Of a DNA stretch of 18,998 nucleotides, positions 1 to 7,880 are shown piece after piece. The stretch is taken from IMG/VR virus record IMGVR_UViG_2850808358_000002; one strand, written 5' to 3'. Position numbers and translations under genes: made by a program. The notes under the pieces are model-generated. The model saw nothing but the letters and a program-made list of their open reading frames with translations, was not told the DNA's origin and did not search any database. The DNA comes from a virus (taxonomy: Duplodnaviria; Heunggongvirae; Uroviricota; Caudoviricetes). Position 1 is the stretch's first letter; the number at the start of each line of letters is the position of its first letter.

Positions 1-1245
1 CTACGATAACCGCGCATTCAACATGGCTATCTGTTCGTCGTTCATGTCATCAATCCACATACCGTAAATTTCATACACCATTTGCGCAGTTTCATGCCCC
101 ATCTGGCTGGCTATAAATGCCGGGTTCGCTCCTGCCGTCAACAGCCAGCAGGCAAAAGTATGTCGCGTATGGTACGGATTACGGCGGCGAATACCAGCAC
201 GTTTTACTGCTGCATTCCATCTTGCACCCAAACTGCTTACCGAGTAATAAGGTTTCTGTTTTTCGTTACACACCCTGGGCATGAAAACAAAATGCAGTTT
301 TTGCTTTTCAGTTCTGCCGTACTCCCGATGATAAAAAGTGATTTCGCTTTTGCGATGATGCCCGGTCAGTTTGTATTGCTCCTTCAGTGCTTCAAGAGCC
401 GGCTGCAGTAATGTTACCGTCCGGATCCCGGCATTTGTTTTTGGGGGACCGAACATATCAAGTATCGTCAGGTTTCTTCTGACATTCACAATTCCCTTCT
501 CGAAATCCACATCCTCCCACGCCAGAGCTGCCAGTTCCCCGTGACGAAGCCCGGAGTAAACGGCAAATTTCCACAAGTTTTGGCTCTGTCCTTTTTCACT
601 TTCCATTAATGCATTGAATTCTGTTTTAGATAACGGGTCAGGCTTTATTCTGTTTCGCTGTAATTTTTTTACTCCTTCAAATGGTTTGGTTGATATAAAT
701 CCCGACTGATACGCAAAACGTAACAACGAACAGAGCAGGGCGATATAGTTATCAACTGTGCGCACGGTTCTTCCTTTTTTGTTGGATCTTGGATTATCTA
801 GGTAAAGCGTTTCTCCATGCAGCAGTTCATTCCGGTAGTTGAAGATATCGCTATAACGAATATGCGATATCGGGGTACTCTCACAAATTATTATCCTGAG
901 TGTTTTTAATTGTGATTTCGTTTTCTTCATTGTGTTTGTTGTTAACTCTGTCTCTTTAATTTTTGTCCAGATATCACAAAGCTCCCCGAATGTTTTTATG
1001 ACCCTCGTTGTCACCATTTTTGCCCCAGTGCTGGACTGGGGCAAACGTCTTAAATACTCAAATTCACCGGAACTGATTTCATGAACTATCAACGCTCTTA
1101 AATTCCCGGCCTTTTTAATGTTACTGTTAGTAATCTCCCAGCCTTTCAATGTTTCCCGACATCGTTTTCCTCGAAACATGAACCAGATGCGAATGTTGAG
1201 GTAGCCTGAGTTTAACGGACACTCCTTCCTGAAATAGAATGGCAT
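1..1245 (-). CDS. int: Phage tyrosine integrase, 5' end interrupted by IS600 (ORF as drawn starts at an ATG inside the IS600 left end)
   Basis: 414-codon minus-strand ORF ending with TAG at 3..1. C-terminal region has the tyrosine-recombinase pattern (NPYHTRHTFACWLL ... MVYEIYGMW). Native sequence stops at 1196; the first 16 codons (MPFYFRKECPLNSGYL) are encoded by the IS600 end. First native Met is at 1179..1177. Confidence 0.8.
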   Translation of the reverse strand: MPFYFRKECPLNSGYLNIRIWFMFRGKRCRETLKGWEITNSNIKKAGNLRALIVHEISSGEFEYLRRLPQSSTGAKMVTTRVIKTFGELCDIWTKIKETELTTNTMKKTKSQLKTLRIIICESTPISHIRYSDIFNYRNELLHGETLYLDNPRSNKKGRTVRTVDNYIALLCSLLRFAYQSGFISTKPFEGVKKLQRNRIKPDPLSKTEFNALMESEKGQSQNLWKFAVYSGLRHGELAALAWEDVDFEKGIVNVRRNLTILDMFGPPKTNAGIRTVTLLQPALEALKEQYKLTGHHRKSEITFYHREYGRTEKQKLHFVFMPRVCNEKQKPYYSVSSLGARWNAAVKRAGIRRRNPYHTRHTFACWLLTAGANPAFIASQMGHETAQMVYEIYGMWIDDMNDEQIAMLNARLS

Positions 1246-1260
1246 CAGAAGGAGCTAATA

Positions 1261-1563
1261 ATGAGCAGAAAAACCCAACGTTACTCTAAAGAGTTCAAAG
1301 CCGAAGCTGTCAGAACGGTTCTTGAAAATCAACTTTCGATCAGTGAAGGCGCTTCCCGATTATCCCTTCCTGAAGGCACTTTAGGACAATGGGTTACCGC
1401 CGCCAGAAAAGGGCTCGGTACTCCTGGTTCCCGCACGGTGGCTGAACTGGAATCTGAAATTCTGCAACTGCGTAAGGCGTTAAATGAAGCTCGCCTTGAG
1501 CGAGATATATTAAAAAAAGCAACAGCGTATTTTGCACAGGAGTCGCTGAAAAATACGCGTTAA
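1261..1563 (+). CDS. IS600 OrfA (helix-turn-helix transposase subunit)
   Basis: 100-aa ORF with ribosome-binding site GGAGC 7 nt upstream; IS3-family OrfA architecture ending at the A7 slippery site. Confidence 0.9.
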   Translation: MSRKTQRYSKEFKAEAVRTVLENQLSISEGASRLSLPEGTLGQWVTAARKGLGTPGSRTVAELESEILQLRKALNEARLERDILKKATAYFAQESLKNTR

Positions 1564-1598
1564 TCGAACAATGGCGACAACAATTTCCCATTGAAGCG

Positions 1599-2417
1599 AT
1601 GTGTCAGGTATTTGGTGTATCCAGGAGCGGTTATTACAACTGGGTACAGCATGAACCCTCAGACAGAAAACAAAGTGATGAGCGGCTAAAACTGGAGATT
1701 AAGGTGGCACATATCCGCACTCGCGAAACATATGGAACCCGGCGGCTCCAGACGGAGCTGGCAGAGAATGGCATCATCGTTGGTCGTGACCGACTGGCAC
1801 GTCTTCGTAAGGAGCTAAGGCTACGCTGTAAGCAGAAACGCAAGTTCAGAGCGACTACGAACCCGAACCACAATCTGCCAGTTGCGCCAAATCTGCTGAA
1901 CCAGACGTTCGCTCCTACAGCACCAAATCAGGTCTGGGTGGCGGACCTGACGTATGTTGCCACACAGGAGGGATGGTTGTACCTCGCTGGCATCAAAGAT
2001 GTTTATACGTGCGAAATTGTCGGCTACGCCATGGGAGAGCGCATGACAAAAGAGCTGACAGGTAAAGCCCTGTTTATGGCGCTCAGGAGCCAGCGCCCAC
2101 CTGCCGGGCTAATCCACCACTCTGATCGAGGTTCACAGTACTGCGCATACGATTACCGGGTCATACAGGAGCAGTTTGGTCTGAAAACATCAATGTCGCG
2201 TAAAGGTAACTGTTACGACAACGCTCCGATGGAAAGCTTCTGGGGAACGCTGAAAAATGAGAGCCTGAGCCACTATCGTTTTAATAACCGGGATGAAGCC
2301 ATCTCAGTAATACGGGAATACATTGAGATTTTCTACAATCGTCAGCGTCGTCACTCTCGTCTGGGGAATATCTCCCCGGCAGCCTTCAGGGAAAAATATC
2401 ATCAGATGGCTGCTTAA
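1599..2417 (+). CDS. IS600 OrfB (DDE catalytic domain; normally made as OrfAB by -1 frameshift)
   Basis: 272-aa ORF in the -1 frame relative to orfA; DDE-type integrase core typical of IS3-family OrfB (…HSDRGSQY…, …[12 protein letters not shown]…). Confidence 0.9.
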   Translation: MCQVFGVSRSGYYNWVQHEPSDRKQSDERLKLEIKVAHIRTRETYGTRRLQTELAENGIIVGRDRLARLRKELRLRCKQKRKFRATTNPNHNLPVAPNLLNQTFAPTAPNQVWVADLTYVATQEGWLYLAGIKDVYTCEIVGYAMGERMTKELTGKALFMALRSQRPPAGLIHHSDRGSQYCAYDYRVIQEQFGLKTSMSRKGNCYDNAPMESFWGTLKNESLSHYRFNNRDEAISVIREYIEIFYNRQRRHSRLGNISPAAFREKYHQMAA

Positions 2418-2457
2418 AAAAAGAACAAATGGTAGTGTCCGCTATTGCCAGTACACC

Positions 2458-2583
2458 TCACACAGTGAATGGGGTTTCTTTATTTTCTGTCTTAATCACG
2501 TAGCCAATACGCTTTCCTTCCAGATTAACCTCGTGAACAATGTCATCAGTAGTTACAACAGTGGCTTCATAACTGGTAATCAT
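2458..2583 (-). CDS. Small hypothetical protein (41 aa as found); stop codon supplied by the IS600 terminus, possibly 3'-truncated
   Basis: ATG at 2583..2581 preceded by AAGGAG 6 nt upstream; translation MITSYEATVVTTDDIVHEVNLEGKRIGYVIKTENKETPFTV, then TGA from the IS600 end sequence (2460..2458). Confidence 0.35.
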   Translation of the reverse strand: MITSYEATVVTTDDIVHEVNLEGKRIGYVIKTENKETPFTV

Positions 2584-3692: not shown

Positions 3693-3893
3693 TCACGGAA
3701 CCCGGCCAGTCTTGCGACTGCCCGCACGCCCCACCATAATTTGAATGTGGCTGTGCATTACGTATAAAAAAACCGCCTGAGCGCGGTTATGCGCCGTGAA
3801 TGACTTCGGGGTAGCAATCCCGGCACCCGTTTTATGAGGTGCAGGTGCACTATAATTCCACCCGTTCTGGTTTTCAATAGCTACATTCAACAT
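3693..3893 (-). CDS. Hypothetical 66-aa ORF (doubtful)
   Basis: ATG with AGGAAAG upstream, but the ORF contains a terminator-like hairpin plus U-run (3766..3788); may be non-coding leader instead. Confidence 0.2.
   Translation of the reverse strand: MLNVAIENQNGWNYSAPAPHKTGAGIATPKSFTAHNRAQAVFLYVMHSHIQIMVGRAGSRKTGRVP
3766..3788 (-). terminator. Candidate intrinsic terminator (minus strand)
   Basis: On the minus strand AACCGC-gctcag-GCGGTT (6-bp stem, 6-nt loop) followed by a run of 7 T. Confidence 0.3.
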
Positions 3894-4236: not shown

Positions 4237-5501
4237 TGAGGTGTACTGGCAATAGCGGACACTACCATTTGTTCTTTTTTTAAGCAGCCATCTGATGATA
4301 TTTTTCCCTGAAGGCTGCCGGGGAGATATTCCCCAGACGAGAGTGACGACGCTGACGATTGTAGAAAATCTCAATGTATTCCCGTATTACTGAGATGGCT
4401 TCATCCCGGTTATTAAAACGATAGTGGCTCAGGCTCTCATTTTTCAGCGTTCCCCAGAAGCTTTCCATCGGAGCGTTGTCGTAACAGTTACCTTTACACG
4501 ACATTGATGTTTTCAGACCAAACTGCTCCTGTATGACCCGGTAATCGTATGCGCAGTACTGTGAACCTCGATCAGAGTGGTGGATTAGCCCGGCAGGTGG
4601 GCGCTGGCTCCTGAGCGCCATAAACAGGGCTTTACCTGTCAGCTCTTTTGTCATGCGCTCTCCCATGGCGTAGCCGACAATTTCGCACGTATAAACATCT
4701 TTGATGCCAGCGAGGTACAACCATCCCTCCTGTGTGGCAACATACGTCAGGTCCGCCACCCAGACCTGATTTGGTGCTGTAGGAGCGAACGTCTGGTTCA
4801 GCAGATTTGGCGCAACTGGCAGATTGTGGTTCGGGTTCGTAGTCGCTCTGAACTTGCGTTTCTGCTTACAGCGTAGCCTTAGCTCCTTACGAAGACGTGC
4901 CAGTCGGTCACGACCAACGATGATGCCATTCTCTGCCAGCTCCGTCTGGAGCCGCCGGGTTCCATATGTTTCGCGAGTGCGGATATGTGCCACCTTAATC
5001 TCCAGTTTTAGCCGCTCATCACTTTGTTTTCTGTCTGAGGGTTCATGCTGTACCCAGTTGTAATAACCGCTCCTGGATACACCAAATACCTGACACATAG
5101 CTTCAATGGGAAATTGTTGTCGCCATTGTTCGATTAACGCGTATTTTTCAGCGACTCCTGTGCAAAATACGCTGTTGCTTTTTTTTAATATATCTCGCTC
5201 AAGGCGAGCTTCATTTAACGCCTTACGCAGTTGCAGAATTTCAGATTCCAGTTCAGCCACCGTGCGGGAACCAGGAGTACCGAGCCCTTTTCTGGCGGCG
5301 GTAACCCATTGTCCTAAAGTGCCTTCAGGAAGGGATAATCGGGAAGCGCCTTCACTGATCGAAAGTTGATTTTCAAGAACCGTTCTGACAGCTTCGGCTT
5401 TGAACTCTTTAGAGTAACGTTGGGTTTTTCTGCTCATTATTAGCTCCTTCTGATGCCATTCTATTTCAGGAAGGAGTGTCCGTTAAACTCAGGCTACCTC
5501 A
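4237..5501 (-). mobile_element. IS600 copy 2 (inverted), 1265 bp, with orfA-orfB fused
   Basis: Same terminal sequences as copy 1 in reverse complement. Slippery run is 8 nt here (T8 on plus strand, 5179..5186) versus 7 in copies 1 and 3. Confidence 0.85.
4280..5437 (-). CDS. IS600 OrfAB fusion transposase (single 385-aa ORF)
   Basis: Continuous ORF: ...[41 protein letters not shown]..., exactly the product expected from the -1 frameshift of copy 1. Also carries R-to-C in ...SMSCKGNCYDN. Confidence 0.85.
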   Translation of the reverse strand: MSRKTQRYSKEFKAEAVRTVLENQLSISEGASRLSLPEGTLGQWVTAARKGLGTPGSRTVAELESEILQLRKALNEARLERDILKKSNSVFCTGVAEKYALIEQWRQQFPIEAMCQVFGVSRSGYYNWVQHEPSDRKQSDERLKLEIKVAHIRTRETYGTRRLQTELAENGIIVGRDRLARLRKELRLRCKQKRKFRATTNPNHNLPVAPNLLNQTFAPTAPNQVWVADLTYVATQEGWLYLAGIKDVYTCEIVGYAMGERMTKELTGKALFMALRSQRPPAGLIHHSDRGSQYCAYDYRVIQEQFGLKTSMSCKGNCYDNAPMESFWGTLKNESLSHYRFNNRDEAISVIREYIEIFYNRQRRHSRLGNISPAAFREKYHQMAA

Positions 5502-5532
5502 CTTACGCTACGTACTTCTCGGGGCGCTTACG
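5502..5532 (+). repeat. 31-bp copy of the IS66-family right terminus, orphan (abuts IS600 copy 2)
   Basis: CTTACGCTACGTACTTCTCGGGGCGCTTACG is identical to 9765..9795, which lies just after the IS66-family transposase stop. Reverse complement begins GTAAGCG, as I recall IS66-family inverted repeats do. Confidence 0.5.
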
Positions 5533-5735: not shown

Positions 5736-6247
5736 TTGATGGAGTGGATAAATGCTTTGATGAACTATTTTGTACTTCATCCATATCGCCTATGGGGGCT
5801 TCTTTTTATAATAGCGTTCACAAAATCCACTTTACTCATTTCGGCGATATTGCCACCAGCATCAATTATGATGGCCACTATAATTACAGTCAGCAAGACG
5901 ACTCTTTCACCATGGGAAGCTGGAATCACGGTCATGAGTGGCGCATGGTGCGGTACTATCGTTAATTACCATCTTGGTATAATAATTGGGCATATCCTCA
6001 ACTTGCATGTATAATATCGAGTCGTTCCAATACAATAGAACGGGTTCGCCTTCAGTTGCAAAATAACTCTGTGTCAATACTTTTCACTTCGCGCTTTATC
6101 GCCGTGCTGCGTTATATTGCTCCTTTGGTGGCAGGAATGTTGCAACTTCATCCAGTGAAAGTGTATACAGTGAGTCTGATTTCAGCTGCTAGCTGGTCAG
6201 CACTTTATGTTGGTAGTTTTAGCTTCGTGTTGCCTTTTTTTAGCTAA
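5736..6247 (+). pseudogene. DedA/YqaA-like small membrane protein gene, apparently frameshifted
   Basis: Two ORFs in different frames (5736..6014 and 6056..6247) whose translations resemble the two halves of YqaA/DedA-type proteins (...SPWEAGITVMSGAWCGTIVNYHLG... and ...FTSRFIAVLRYIAPLVAGMLQL...); the second frame is open from 5987. AT-rich region. Confidence 0.4.
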
Positions 6248-6335: not shown

Positions 6336-7361
6336 CCCCGTTACTTTATTCGTACCCCTTATAATGGGGTGTTAGCCAGCCAGACCCGGCATGATTACTG
6401 CCCCCAGTCGTCCATGATCCGGGGGGGGATGTCACCGGGTCTGGTGGGGCGCTGGTAACCGCTAATAGGGGTCAGGTCAGGCACTTTTGCCGGGACCGTC
6501 TGTAACGTGGATGCCGGTACCTGCTCCCCGTGGTTATCTGGTTAACCCATATACAAGGGAGACAGAATGACCGAATCCAGCGATTACGAATCCGTCCAGG
6601 TCTTTATCGGCGTTGATGTCGGTAAAGATACGCATCACGCTGTTGCCATTAATCGTTCAGGTAAACGCCTGTTCGATAAAGCATTACCCAACGACGAAAA
6701 CAAACTCAGGTCGCTAATATCTGACCTGAAACAACATGGTCAGATACTGCTGGTTGTTGATCAGCCAGCTACCATCGGTGCGTTACCTGTCGCCGTTGCC
6801 CGCTCAGAAGGAGTCCTTGTCGGATACCTCCCTGGACTGGCCATGCGCCGCATAGCCGACTTACACGCCGGTGAAGCTAAAACTGATGCTCGTGACGCTG
6901 CCATCATTGCCGAAGCTGCCCGTACCCTGCCTCACGCGCTACGCACGCTGAAACTGGCTGACGAGCAAATCGCCGAACTCTCCATGCTCTGCGGCTTCGA
7001 TGATGATCTTGCCGCACAGACAACGCAGGCCAGCAACCGTATCCGCGGCCTTCTGACCCAGATACATCCGGCACTGGAGCGCGTTCTCGGTCCGAGACTT
7101 GAGTACCCGGCGGTACTCGATCTTCTCCAGCGATATCCCTCACCAGAAAAACTCGCTTCGCTGGGTGAGAAGAAGCTGGCAGCCCAGCTCTGCAAACTTG
7201 CGCCTCGTCTGGGTAAACGCCTTGCAGCAGACATTGCTCAGGCACTGGCCGAACAAACCGTCGTCGTTCCCGGCACGAATGCCGCTGCCGTAGTACTGCC
7301 ACGTCTGGCACTCCAGCTCATCACGCTGCGTAAGCAAAGAGACGAGGTGGCGCTTGAAGTT
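6336..7361 (+). mobile_element. IS110-family element copy 1, 3'-truncated
   Basis: Left end and 5' non-coding region match the reverse complement of 15123..15348; transposase frame matches the full copy up to about 7358, then diverges. Confidence 0.7.
6340..6566 (+). ncRNA. 5' non-coding region of IS110-family element; candidate bridge RNA locus
   Basis: About 227 nt between the element left end (GTTACTTTATTCG...) and the transposase ATG, GC-rich with several inverted-repeat stretches. IS110-family elements are reported to encode a structured guide RNA here. No structure or covariation was computed. Confidence 0.35.
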
Positions 7362-7385: not shown

Positions 7386-7542
7386 TTGCCCCGTATGATG
7401 CTGCCCGGTTGCTTAGAATAAGCACAAACAGCATGGAAACTTTTGCTTAATGAACAATGACAGAATCGTCGGAAGACCTGAGGTAGCCTGAGTTTAACGG
7501 ACACTCCTTCCTGAAATAGAATGGCATCAGAAGGAGCTAATA

Positions 7543-7845
7543 ATGAGCAGAAAAACCCAACGTTACTCTAAAGAGTTCAAAGCCGAAGCTGTCAGAACGG
7601 TTCCTGAAAATCAACTTTCGATCAGTGAAGGCGCTTCCCGATTATCCCTTCCTGAAGGCACTTTAGGACAATGGGTTACCGCCGCCAGAAAAGGGCTCGG
7701 TACTCCTGGTTCCCGCACGGTGGCTGAACTGGAATCTGAAATTCTGCGACTGCGTAAGGCGTTAAATGAAGCTCGCCTTGAGCGAGATATATTAAAAAAA
7801 GCAACAGCGTATTTTGCACAGGAGTCGCTGAAAAATACGCGTTAA
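7543..7845 (+). CDS. IS600 OrfA
   Basis: 100 aa, near-identical to 1261..1563. Confidence 0.9.
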   Translation: MSRKTQRYSKEFKAEAVRTVPENQLSISEGASRLSLPEGTLGQWVTAARKGLGTPGSRTVAELESEILRLRKALNEARLERDILKKATAYFAQESLKNTR

Positions 7846-7880
7846 TCGAACAATGGCGACAACAATTTCCCATTGAAGCG

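What the first reader, a model, noticed from the sequence alone, without database searches (positions are those of the whole stretch)
4280..5437. IS600 copy with orfA and orfB permanently fused by a +1 A in the slippery run
Copies 1 and 3 have A7 at the frameshift site and separate orfA/orfB; copy 2 has A8 (T8 at 5179..5186), giving one 385-aa ORF identical to the predicted frameshift product. In the related IS911, fused OrfAB alone drives transposition while OrfA moderates it, so this copy could be deregulated and lacks its own OrfA. It could equally be a homopolymer sequencing error.
Basis: partly seen in the sequence, partly recalled or inferred. Interest (0 to 1): 0.6.

Follow-up and report, generated by a model that had tools for sequence, protein, structure and literature searches.

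The report
Naturally fused-frame IS600 transposase copy
One copy of the jumping gene IS600 carries an extra A that joins its two overlapping genes into one transposase gene. The change is very probably real, because three more copies in the same Shigella genome share it together with a private marker base, so a variant that no longer needs ribosomal frameshifting has multiplied there.

Summary
IS600 copy 2 (4237-5501, minus strand) has A8 (T8 at 5179-5186). Copies 1 and 3 have A7. Copy 2 therefore carries one 385-aa ORF (4280-5437). This ORF equals the simulated -1 frameshift product of copy 1 except for R314C.

I first favoured a sequencing error. The source (GenBank CP026877.1, probably a PacBio Shigella boydii assembly) differs from a sister assembly by 11 private one-base indels, and the sister's orthologous copy has A7. 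But 10 of those 11 indels are G/C-run deletions, and A8 is the only A/T insertion.

The decisive result is that the same genome holds three more directly fused IS600 copies at unrelated loci. All four carry both A8 and a silent G>T change 87 nt downstream. That base was not found in the A7 copies examined, and the A8+T combination was absent from about 8,600 IS600 places in E. coli genomes and plasmids. Two of the copies have perfect 3-bp target duplications.

So A8 is a heritable allele that has spread within the genome. It mimics the engineered fused-frame OrfAB mutants of IS911 and IS2. Higher activity is inferred, not shown. OrfA can come in trans from A7 copies or from slippage on the A8 run. 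This is a new variant of a known kind, of moderate interest.

The parts
4237..5501 (-). IS600 copy 2, 1265 bp, member of the A8 (fused-frame) subfamily. It has TG...CA ends and no target-site duplication (flanks AAG / GTG in element orientation).
4280..5437 (-). Single 385-aa orfAB ORF (stop included). It has HTH_Tnp_1, HTH_21 and rve domains and scores 410 bits against NCBIfam IS3 family transposase (cut-off 160).
5179..5186 (-). A8 run on the coding strand (T8 on the plus strand). This is the slippery A_AAA_AAA site with one extra A, which puts orfB in frame with orfA.
5099..5099 (-). Silent marker base (element position 402, G>T, GCG>GCT Ala). It is shared by all four A8 copies in the source genome and is absent from the A7 copies examined.
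4498..4498 (-). C>T giving R314C, 11 residues upstream of the catalytic E325 in the [15 protein letters not shown] motif. It is specific to copy 2 among the A8 copies. The same base is also seen in an A7 copy in the sister genome.
5136..5176 (-). Predicted hairpin starting 2 nt after the G that follows the A run, and ending beside the orfA stop codon of A7 copies. It is a candidate frameshift stimulator. Coordinates were transferred from copy 1 (1521-1561).
   Evidence: whole 92-nt stretch -23.1 kcal/mol, z -1.58: not significant on its own
1197..2460 (+). IS600 copy 1. It has A7 at 1512-1518, orfA at 1261-1563 and orfB at 1599-2417. It is the consensus type and is identical in the sister genome.
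7479..8742 (+). IS600 copy 3. It has A7 at 7794-7800 and three private non-synonymous changes (L21P, Q69R, W128R). It is inserted in an IS66-family transposase gene.

Best explanation
The extra A is a real, heritable mutation of the IS600 slippery run (A7 to A8). It converts the programmed -1 frameshift arrangement (orfA, then orfB in the -1 frame) into one continuous orfAB gene. Ordinary translation therefore makes full-length transposase from every ribosome pass, instead of the minority that frameshift. The allele arose on a consensus-type IS600 that also carries a silent G>T at element position 402. It then spread to at least four loci in this (probably Shigella boydii) chromosome. Copy-out-paste-in transposition accounts for at least some of the spread, because two copies have perfect 3-bp target duplications. 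Gene conversion or IS-IS recombination probably accounts for copy 2 itself, which has no duplication and whose orthologue in a sister strain is an A7 copy with a different haplotype.

Shown: the allele, the linkage to the marker base, the multiple loci, the intact ORF and the intact ends.

Inferred from IS911, IS2 and ISSau2 work: OrfAB is raised relative to OrfA, and because transposase of this family acts mainly on the copy that encodes it (own knowledge), self-mobilisation is higher. This is tempered by OrfA and OrfB made by the A7 copies in the same cell. It is also tempered by residual slippage on A8. Loss of one A in the mRNA restores the 100-aa OrfA, and a -1 ribosomal slip gives a 96-aa OrfA-like protein. 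Copy 2 additionally carries R314C, whose effect is unknown.
For: A8 against A7 and the fused 385-aa ORF are shown. The exact fused product of the consensus type (P0197) is encoded as a direct 1158-nt ORF at three further places in CP026877.1 ('translates to query: yes'). All three copies, and copy 2, carry A8 together with 402T. Copies 1 and 3 and a partial copy in the same genome carry A7 with 402G. Target duplications are AGC/AGC at L034 and TCC/TCC at L035. No A8+402T match was found among 7445 IS600 places in E. coli complete genomes or 1228 places in plasmids.

The assembly's other private indels are all G/C-run deletions. None of the other A/T runs of 5 or more bases differs between the two assemblies. 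The equally noisy sister assembly has no P0197 on record, and the fused form of an S. sonnei copy present in 59 assemblies is not on record. A7-to-A8 miscalls are therefore rare.

The literature agrees on the effect of such a change. A one-base insertion in the frameshift window gives OrfAB alone without changing its sequence (IS911, PMC2909936). A6G>A7G gives fused OrfAB as the principal product (IS2, PMC3219604). OrfA and OrfB reduce OrfAB-driven transposition (ISSau2, PMC5771124).
Against: No reads were available, so every A8 call rests on one PacBio-era assembly that demonstrably contains homopolymer errors. I found the three extra copies by searching for fused ORFs, so A7 copies carrying 402T could exist unseen, which would weaken the linkage argument. 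The unbiased sample of A7 copies from this genome is only three. The orthologous copy in the sister strain is A7. Outside this genome A8 is always a singleton in a long-read assembly. That pattern does not suggest that fused copies generally proliferate. The total number of IS600 copies in the genome is unknown, so four A8 copies is not evidence of hyperactivity. R314C replaces a residue that is R in 83 of 114 diverse homologues and is never C.
Confidence: 0.65

Rival explanations
1. Homopolymer consensus error: the true sequence is A7 and the assembly over-called the run.
For: The record belongs to an accession block attributed to a PacBio-only study of 59 historical Shigella strains (attribution of this particular record is an inference). 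In about 18 kb the window region and the sister assembly differ by 11 private 1-bp indels against about 9 substitutions. The indels break ttcA, a Rha-family gene and a DedA gene differently in the two assemblies. The sister's orthologous copy has A7. A second IS pair in the window also differs by a run length, G8 against G7, and G7 is the best match in only 3 of 1262 E. coli records.
Against: Ten of the 11 private indels are deletions in G/C runs, and A8 is the only insertion and the only A/T event. Four copies in one genome share A8. All four also share a private substitution 87 nt away, which an error process cannot track. The sister assembly, with the same kind of noise, has no directly fused consensus ORF on record.
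Confidence: 0.08
2. The allele is real but without consequence. The A8 copies are no more active than A7 copies, or are less active. They reached four loci through gene conversion between IS copies, or through mobilisation in trans, and trans-acting OrfA and OrfB from the many A7 copies keep transposition at normal levels.
For: Copy 2 has no target duplication, and its orthologue in the sister strain has a different haplotype at five positions while the flanks are nearly identical. This points to conversion or recombination. L036 also lacks a duplication. The L034 and L035 insertion sites are shared with three short-read data sets, so they are not brand-new insertions. Elsewhere A8 copies are singletons. 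OrfA and OrfB inhibit in trans in related elements.
Against: Two A8 copies have perfect 3-bp duplications and are identical over 1265 bp, as expected for recent transposition of an A8 master. In IS911 and IS2 the equivalent engineered change raises OrfAB and the transposition intermediates (and own knowledge of that literature).
Confidence: 0.25

Closest known systems
Canonical IS600 (IS3 family), as found in Shigella and E. coli
   Same: Copy 2 is 99.8% identical to the A7 copies in the window. It has the same TG...CA ends and imperfect terminal repeats, the same 100-aa OrfA region and the same DDE domain. RefSeq annotates matching copies as 'IS3-like element IS600 family transposase, programmed frameshift'.
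   Different: It has one extra A in the slippery run, so there is no separate orfA stop in frame and no need for frameshifting. It also carries a marker substitution at position 402, and in copy 2 R314C.
Engineered fused-frame OrfAB mutants of IS911 and IS2 (A6G>A7G)
   Same: The lesion is the same: a one-base insertion in the A run fuses the frames without altering the OrfAB sequence (PMC2909936, PMC3219604). The fused protein here equals the simulated frameshift product.
   Different: The allele arose naturally, sits in the chromosome under its own promoter, and coexists with wild-type copies. Its expression and activity have not been measured.
IS3-family elements that rely on transcriptional slippage (IS1447 group)
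   Same: They have a long A run in the orfA/orfB overlap. Runs of 7 or more A suffice for RNA-polymerase slippage in both directions (PMC6211511), so A8 here may yield a mixture of mRNAs.
   Different: In IS1447 slippage is needed to make transposase. Here the DNA already encodes the fused frame, and slippage would instead restore OrfA-type products.
Natural single-ORF members of the IS3 family (own knowledge from ISfinder descriptions, not checked here)
   Same: The transposase is encoded by one uninterrupted frame.
   Different: Those are distinct elements fixed in that state. Here it is a young allele of an element whose standard form frameshifts.

Membership tests
IS600 / IS3 family insertion sequence | About 1.26 kb element with 5'-TG...CA-3' ends and imperfect terminal inverted repeats | tested here: met
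   The element is 1265 bp, with ends TGAGGTAGCC...GTACACCTCA. The first 40 nt of each end show partial complementarity.
IS600 / IS3 family insertion sequence | DDE transposase matching the IS3-family profile | tested here: met
   NF033516 scores 410 bits against a cut-off of 160 and covers profile positions 1-369. Pfam domains are HTH_Tnp_1, HTH_21 and rve. The conserved D320, N321, E325 and K332 are present.
IS600 / IS3 family insertion sequence | Near identity to copies named IS600 | tested here: met
   The 106-nt query around the A run matches RefSeq-annotated IS600 copies at 99-100%. Full length, copy 2 is 99.8% identical to copies 1 and 3.
IS600 / IS3 family insertion sequence | 3-bp target-site duplication | tested here: not met
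   Copy 2 has flanks AAG and GTG, and copies 1 and 3 also lack duplications. Sibling A8 copies L034 (AGC) and L035 (TCC) have them. Absence in copy 2 fits later recombination and does not argue against membership.
IS600 / IS3 family insertion sequence | orfA and orfB in 0/-1 frames joined by programmed -1 frameshifting at an A-rich slippery site | tested here: not met
   This feature is met in copies 1 and 3. In copy 2 the frames are fused by A8. This is the variant character.
IS600 / IS3 family insertion sequence | Frameshift-stimulating structure downstream of the slippery site | tested here: inconclusive
   A hairpin is predicted that starts 2 nt after the G following the A run and ends beside the orfA stop codon. 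The whole-stretch z-score is only -1.58.
Fused-frame (constitutive OrfAB) transposase mutant | Single-base insertion in the slippery run giving OrfAB with unchanged sequence | tested here: met
   The simulated +1 A in copy 1 gives the same 385 aa apart from R314C. Three sibling copies encode exactly the simulated product.
Fused-frame (constitutive OrfAB) transposase mutant | Raised OrfAB level, raised figure-eight and circle formation, raised transposition | not testable with these tools
   This needs western blots, junction PCR and mating-out assays.
Sequencing artefact (homopolymer miscall) | Variant uncorrelated with neighbouring true variants, and not reproducible across copies beyond the error rate | tested here: not met
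   Four copies share A8 and the private 402T, while A7 copies have 402G. The error spectrum of the assembly is G/C deletions.

The most novel reading that the evidence does not exclude
The A run of IS600 may work as a mutable switch. Rare A7>A8 slippage creates a frameshift-independent, cis-acting transposase gene whose copy out-replicates its regulated relatives. The A8+402T subfamily in this Shigella boydii lineage would then be such a runaway lineage caught in the act, contributing to the IS600 expansion typical of Shigella. The sporadic A8 singletons seen in E. coli, S. flexneri chromosomes and pINV plasmids would be the same switch thrown independently.
Probability: 0.25. Interest if true: 0.7.

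Novelty: new variant of a known kind. Interest (0 to 1): 0.5.

Why it matters
Programmed frameshifting is the textbook brake on IS3-family transposition. Its removal has been studied almost only with engineered constructs on plasmids. A natural allele that removes the brake, has reached at least four chromosomal loci and coexists with regulated copies gives a direct way to ask two questions. Does frameshift control limit IS spread in a real genome? Do trans-acting OrfA and OrfB from sibling copies compensate? Shigella genomes are shaped by expansion of IS600 and four other IS (PMC7373316), so a deregulated subfamily would bear on how such expansions start. There is also a practical lesson. Automatic annotation hides the difference, because slippage-joined and truly fused copies receive the same product name and length.

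Tried and rejected
1. I favoured the sequencing-error explanation until. The grounds were the sister locus with A7, the 11 private indels and the second run-length difference in the IS110-family pair. I rejected it after finding the four-copy A8+402T haplotype and noting that all other indels are G/C deletions.

2. I looked for the same copy in other genomes by exact protein. The fused 385-aa protein with C314 is on one contig only. The 272-aa OrfB with the Cys change is not on record. The Rha-family and 66-aa neighbours are unique to this record. DicB and the integrase finally gave the sister genome.

3. I tried to confirm the strain and sequencing method. The accession is absent from the paper library, the data paper (PMC5897796) is not held, and two candidate supplements are not held. 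Only the neighbouring accession is attributed to the PacBio study.

4. I asked whether the 385-aa 'IS600 family transposase' entries in databases are true fusions. Most are slippage-joined annotations of A7 copies (1157 nt, 'translates to query: no', F85 instead of L85).

5. I asked whether the three E. coli A8 copies share a private marker. They do not, because their A7 orthologues on related plasmids carry the same bases.

6. I asked whether the two S. flexneri pINV A8 copies are one inherited locus. They are not: the flanks differ and the elements are 16 mismatches apart.

I got round this through the listing of cluster members ids.

8. I checked the tail-module region for run-length errors. 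There were none, only a 4-bp repeat-unit deletion.

Full report
**Observation.** The window holds three IS600 copies: copy 1 at 1197-2460 (+), copy 2 at 4237-5501 (-) and copy 3 at 7479-8742 (+). Copies 1 and 3 have A7 at 1512-1518 and 7794-7800, with separate ORFs of 100 aa (orfA) and 272 aa (orfB). Copy 2 has T8 at 5179-5186, which is A8 on its coding strand. It has one ORF of 385 aa at 4280-5437.

Adding one A to copy 1 in silico gives the same protein apart from R314C, caused by C>T at window 4498. Copy 2 also has a silent GCG>GCT change at window 5099, which is element position 402. The zero-frame codons are TTA AAA AAA, so the slippery heptamer is A_AAA_AAA. The fused reading ...DILKKSNSV... 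is what a -1 slip would produce.

The protein is a full IS3-family transposase. It scores 410 bits against NF033516 (cut-off 160) and has HTH_Tnp_1, HTH_21 and rve domains.

**Source and the error hypothesis.** The exact fused protein is on record on one contig only, GenBank CP026877.1 (5.13 Mb). Exact flanking proteins are named Shigella boydii by their sources. [quoted passage not shown] That this record belongs to the same set is my inference.

A sister chromosome from the same accession block, CP026845.1, shares the whole region, including the orthologue of copy 2. There the run is A7 and orfA and orfB are separate.

Over about 18 kb the two assemblies differ by about 9 substitutions and 11 private one-base indels, counting one in a further IS600 copy in the sister. 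I polarised these with outgroups.
- This assembly has G5>G4 in ttcA.
- It has G4>G3 at 3724, which splits a Rha-family gene.
- It has C3>C2 at about 5996, which splits a DedA gene.
- It has G8>G7 at 15261-15267 in an IS110-family copy.
- The sister has six other G/C-run deletions.

G7 in that IS110-family element is the best match in only 3 of 1262 E. coli records, so G8 is the normal state. The chance of such a deletion rises steeply with G/C run length. About 0.4% of 3-mers are affected, about 20% of 5-mers, and half or more of 6- to 8-mers. This cannot be real divergence between genomes that differ at about 3 sites per 10 kb. At this stage an artefact looked the better reading of A8.

**Why the artefact reading fails.**
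- A8 is the only insertion and the only A/T-run event among the 11 indels. None of the other A/T runs of 5 or more bases differs between the two assemblies.
- The fused product simulated from copy 1 (L85, R314; P0197) is on record. It is encoded as a direct 1158-nt ORF at three more places in the same chromosome, around 1.145, 1.314 and 1.358 Mb. It also occurs once in an unrelated assembly.
- All three extra copies differ from copy 1 at exactly two positions, the extra A and the G>T at position 402 that copy 2 carries. Copies 1 and 3 and a partial copy next to L034 have A7 with 402G. A miscall cannot follow a substitution 87 nt away.
- No A8+402T match exists among 7445 IS600 places in complete E. 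coli genomes or 1228 places in plasmids, so 402T is a private marker of this subfamily.
- A7>A8 miscalls are rare in general. The equally noisy sister assembly has no P0197. The fused form of an S. sonnei copy present in 59 assemblies is not on record.

Caveats remain. The extra copies were found because they are fused, so A7 copies with 402T could exist. The unbiased sample of A7 copies from this genome is three. No reads were seen. I put the probability that A8 is real at about 0.9.

**History of the allele.**
- L034 (inside an AAA_24 gene) and L035 (at the 3' end of mtfA, cutting it from 265 to 249 aa) have perfect 3-bp duplications, AGC and TCC. They are identical over 1265 bp, as expected for transposition of an A8 master.
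- Both insertion sites are also present in three short-read data sets (ERR200316, SRR1811640, QWSJ01), whose contigs stop at the IS edge. The insertions are therefore shared within a lineage, and those reads could test the allele.
- The L034 site is empty in more distant genomes.
- Copy 2 and L036 lack duplications.
- Copy 2 differs from its sister-strain orthologue at five positions while the flanks are almost identical. Its 1003T (R314C) also occurs in another IS600 copy in the sister genome. This mosaic points to gene conversion or IS-IS recombination at copy 2.

**Wider occurrence.** Database entries of 385 aa named 'IS600 family transposase' are mostly slippage-joined annotations of A7 copies. 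They are 1157 nt long, do not translate directly, and read DIFKK instead of DILKK. True A8 copies without 402T occur as singletons:
- three E. coli records; in one of them, plasmid pMBT-5, the orthologues on related plasmids are A7;
- two S. flexneri pINV plasmids, at different loci and in diverged IS600 variants;
- a few other long-read assemblies.

For each of these, error and private mutation cannot be told apart. Only in the present genome is the allele multi-copy.

**Mechanism.** Shown here: an intact 385-aa ORF, intact ends, and the same N-terminal HTH region and DDE motif residues (D320, N321, E325, K332) as the consensus.

From the literature:
- In IS911, OrfAB alone is obtained by inserting one base pair in the frameshift region without changing the protein, and OrfA is a regulator (PMC2909936).
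- In IS2, A6G>A7G makes fused OrfAB the principal product (PMC3219604).
- In ISSau2, OrfA and OrfB each reduce OrfAB-driven transposition (PMC5771124).

Inference: an A8 copy makes transposase on every translation and no OrfA of its own. Because IS911-type transposase acts mainly in cis (own knowledge), such a copy should mobilise itself more often. Three factors would dampen this.
- A7 copies in the same cell supply OrfA and OrfB.
- Runs of 7 or more A support RNA-polymerase slippage in both directions (PMC6211511). An A8>A7 transcript restores the 100-aa OrfA.
- The heptamer and the predicted downstream hairpin are retained. A -1 ribosomal slip would therefore give a 96-aa OrfA-like protein ending KQQRILHRSR.

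R314C affects copy 2 only. The position is R in 83 of 114 diverse homologues, with A, G, S, K or N in others and never C, so the effect is uncertain.

**Comparison and novelty.** The element is a member of IS600 and the IS3 family by size, ends, protein profile and identity. It fails only the 'two frames joined by frameshifting' feature, which is the point of interest, and in copy 2 the target duplication. It works like the engineered fused-frame mutants. It is not a transcriptional-slippage element of the IS1447 type, because slippage is not needed for transposase. I rate it a new variant of a known kind.

Interest is moderate, for two reasons:
- the lesion is predictable;
- activity has not been measured.

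Even so, a natural multi-copy loss of the frameshift brake, in a genus known for IS600 expansion (PMC7373316), is directly testable.

**Verdict.** The feature is real and correctly read as a fused orfAB, and the sequencing-error alternative is unlikely (about 0.08). Deregulated transposition is plausible but unproven.

Noticed in passing
window 3724; 5995-5996; 15261-15267; and ttcA just beyond window position 1 (L024 about 11437): This assembly has private one-base deletions in G/C runs. G4>G3 splits a Rha-family gene into 66 + 214 aa. C3>C2 splits a 170-aa DedA gene into 92 + 63 aa. G8>G7 lies upstream of the IS110-family transposase gene. G5>G4 shortens ttcA from 311 to 267 aa. The sister assembly has six different ones. 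These are almost certainly consensus errors, so pseudogene calls in this record should not be trusted at G/C runs.
   Followed up: yes
window 6336-7360 (+) and 14329-15352 (-): This is an inverted pair of an IS110-family element (NCBIfam 'IS110 family RNA-guided transposase'; 398-aa ORF at 13926-15122). The shared repeat ends at 7360, and the copy-1 ORF is only 272 aa. The other copy interrupts the phage tail-fibre region. The two bracket the tail module and could mediate its inversion.
   Followed up: partly
window about 12305: One unit of a (GTCA)3 repeat is missing relative to two E. coli homologues. This frameshifts the baseplate J/gp47 gene into 150 + 260 aa. It looks like a genuine repeat-slippage pseudogene rather than a run-length error.
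   Followed up: yes
window 5502-5532 and 9765-9795; 8605-9762: A 31-nt direct repeat has GTAAGCG-type ends typical of IS66-family termini (own knowledge). One copy follows the IS66 transposase gene that IS600 copy 3 interrupts. The other abuts the left end of IS600 copy 2. None of the three IS600 copies in the window has a target duplication, which suggests IS600-mediated rearrangements of this prophage remnant.
   Followed up: partly
loci L005-L010, L026, L027 (RefSeq/GenBank annotation): The slippage-joined conceptual OrfAB of IS600 in NCBI annotation reads DIFKKSNSV. Direct translation of A8 copies, and the expected A_AAA_AAA slip, give DILKKSNSV. The join appears to be placed one position early, so annotated 'programmed frameshift' products differ by one residue (F85 against L85) from the likely real protein.
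   Followed up: partly
window 7604, 7748, 7923 (IS600 copy 3): Copy 3 carries three private transitions, all non-synonymous (L21P and Q69R in OrfA; W128R in the orfB part). L21P also occurs in other copies. This copy may be decaying.
   Followed up: no
L002-L004, L033, L050, L051, L053, L055: Singleton A8 IS600 copies occur in unrelated E. coli and S. flexneri chromosomes and plasmids. There is always one per genome, always in long-read or hybrid assemblies, and they sit on different IS600 sequence backgrounds. They represent either recurrent mutation at the run or recurrent miscalls.
   Followed up: partly
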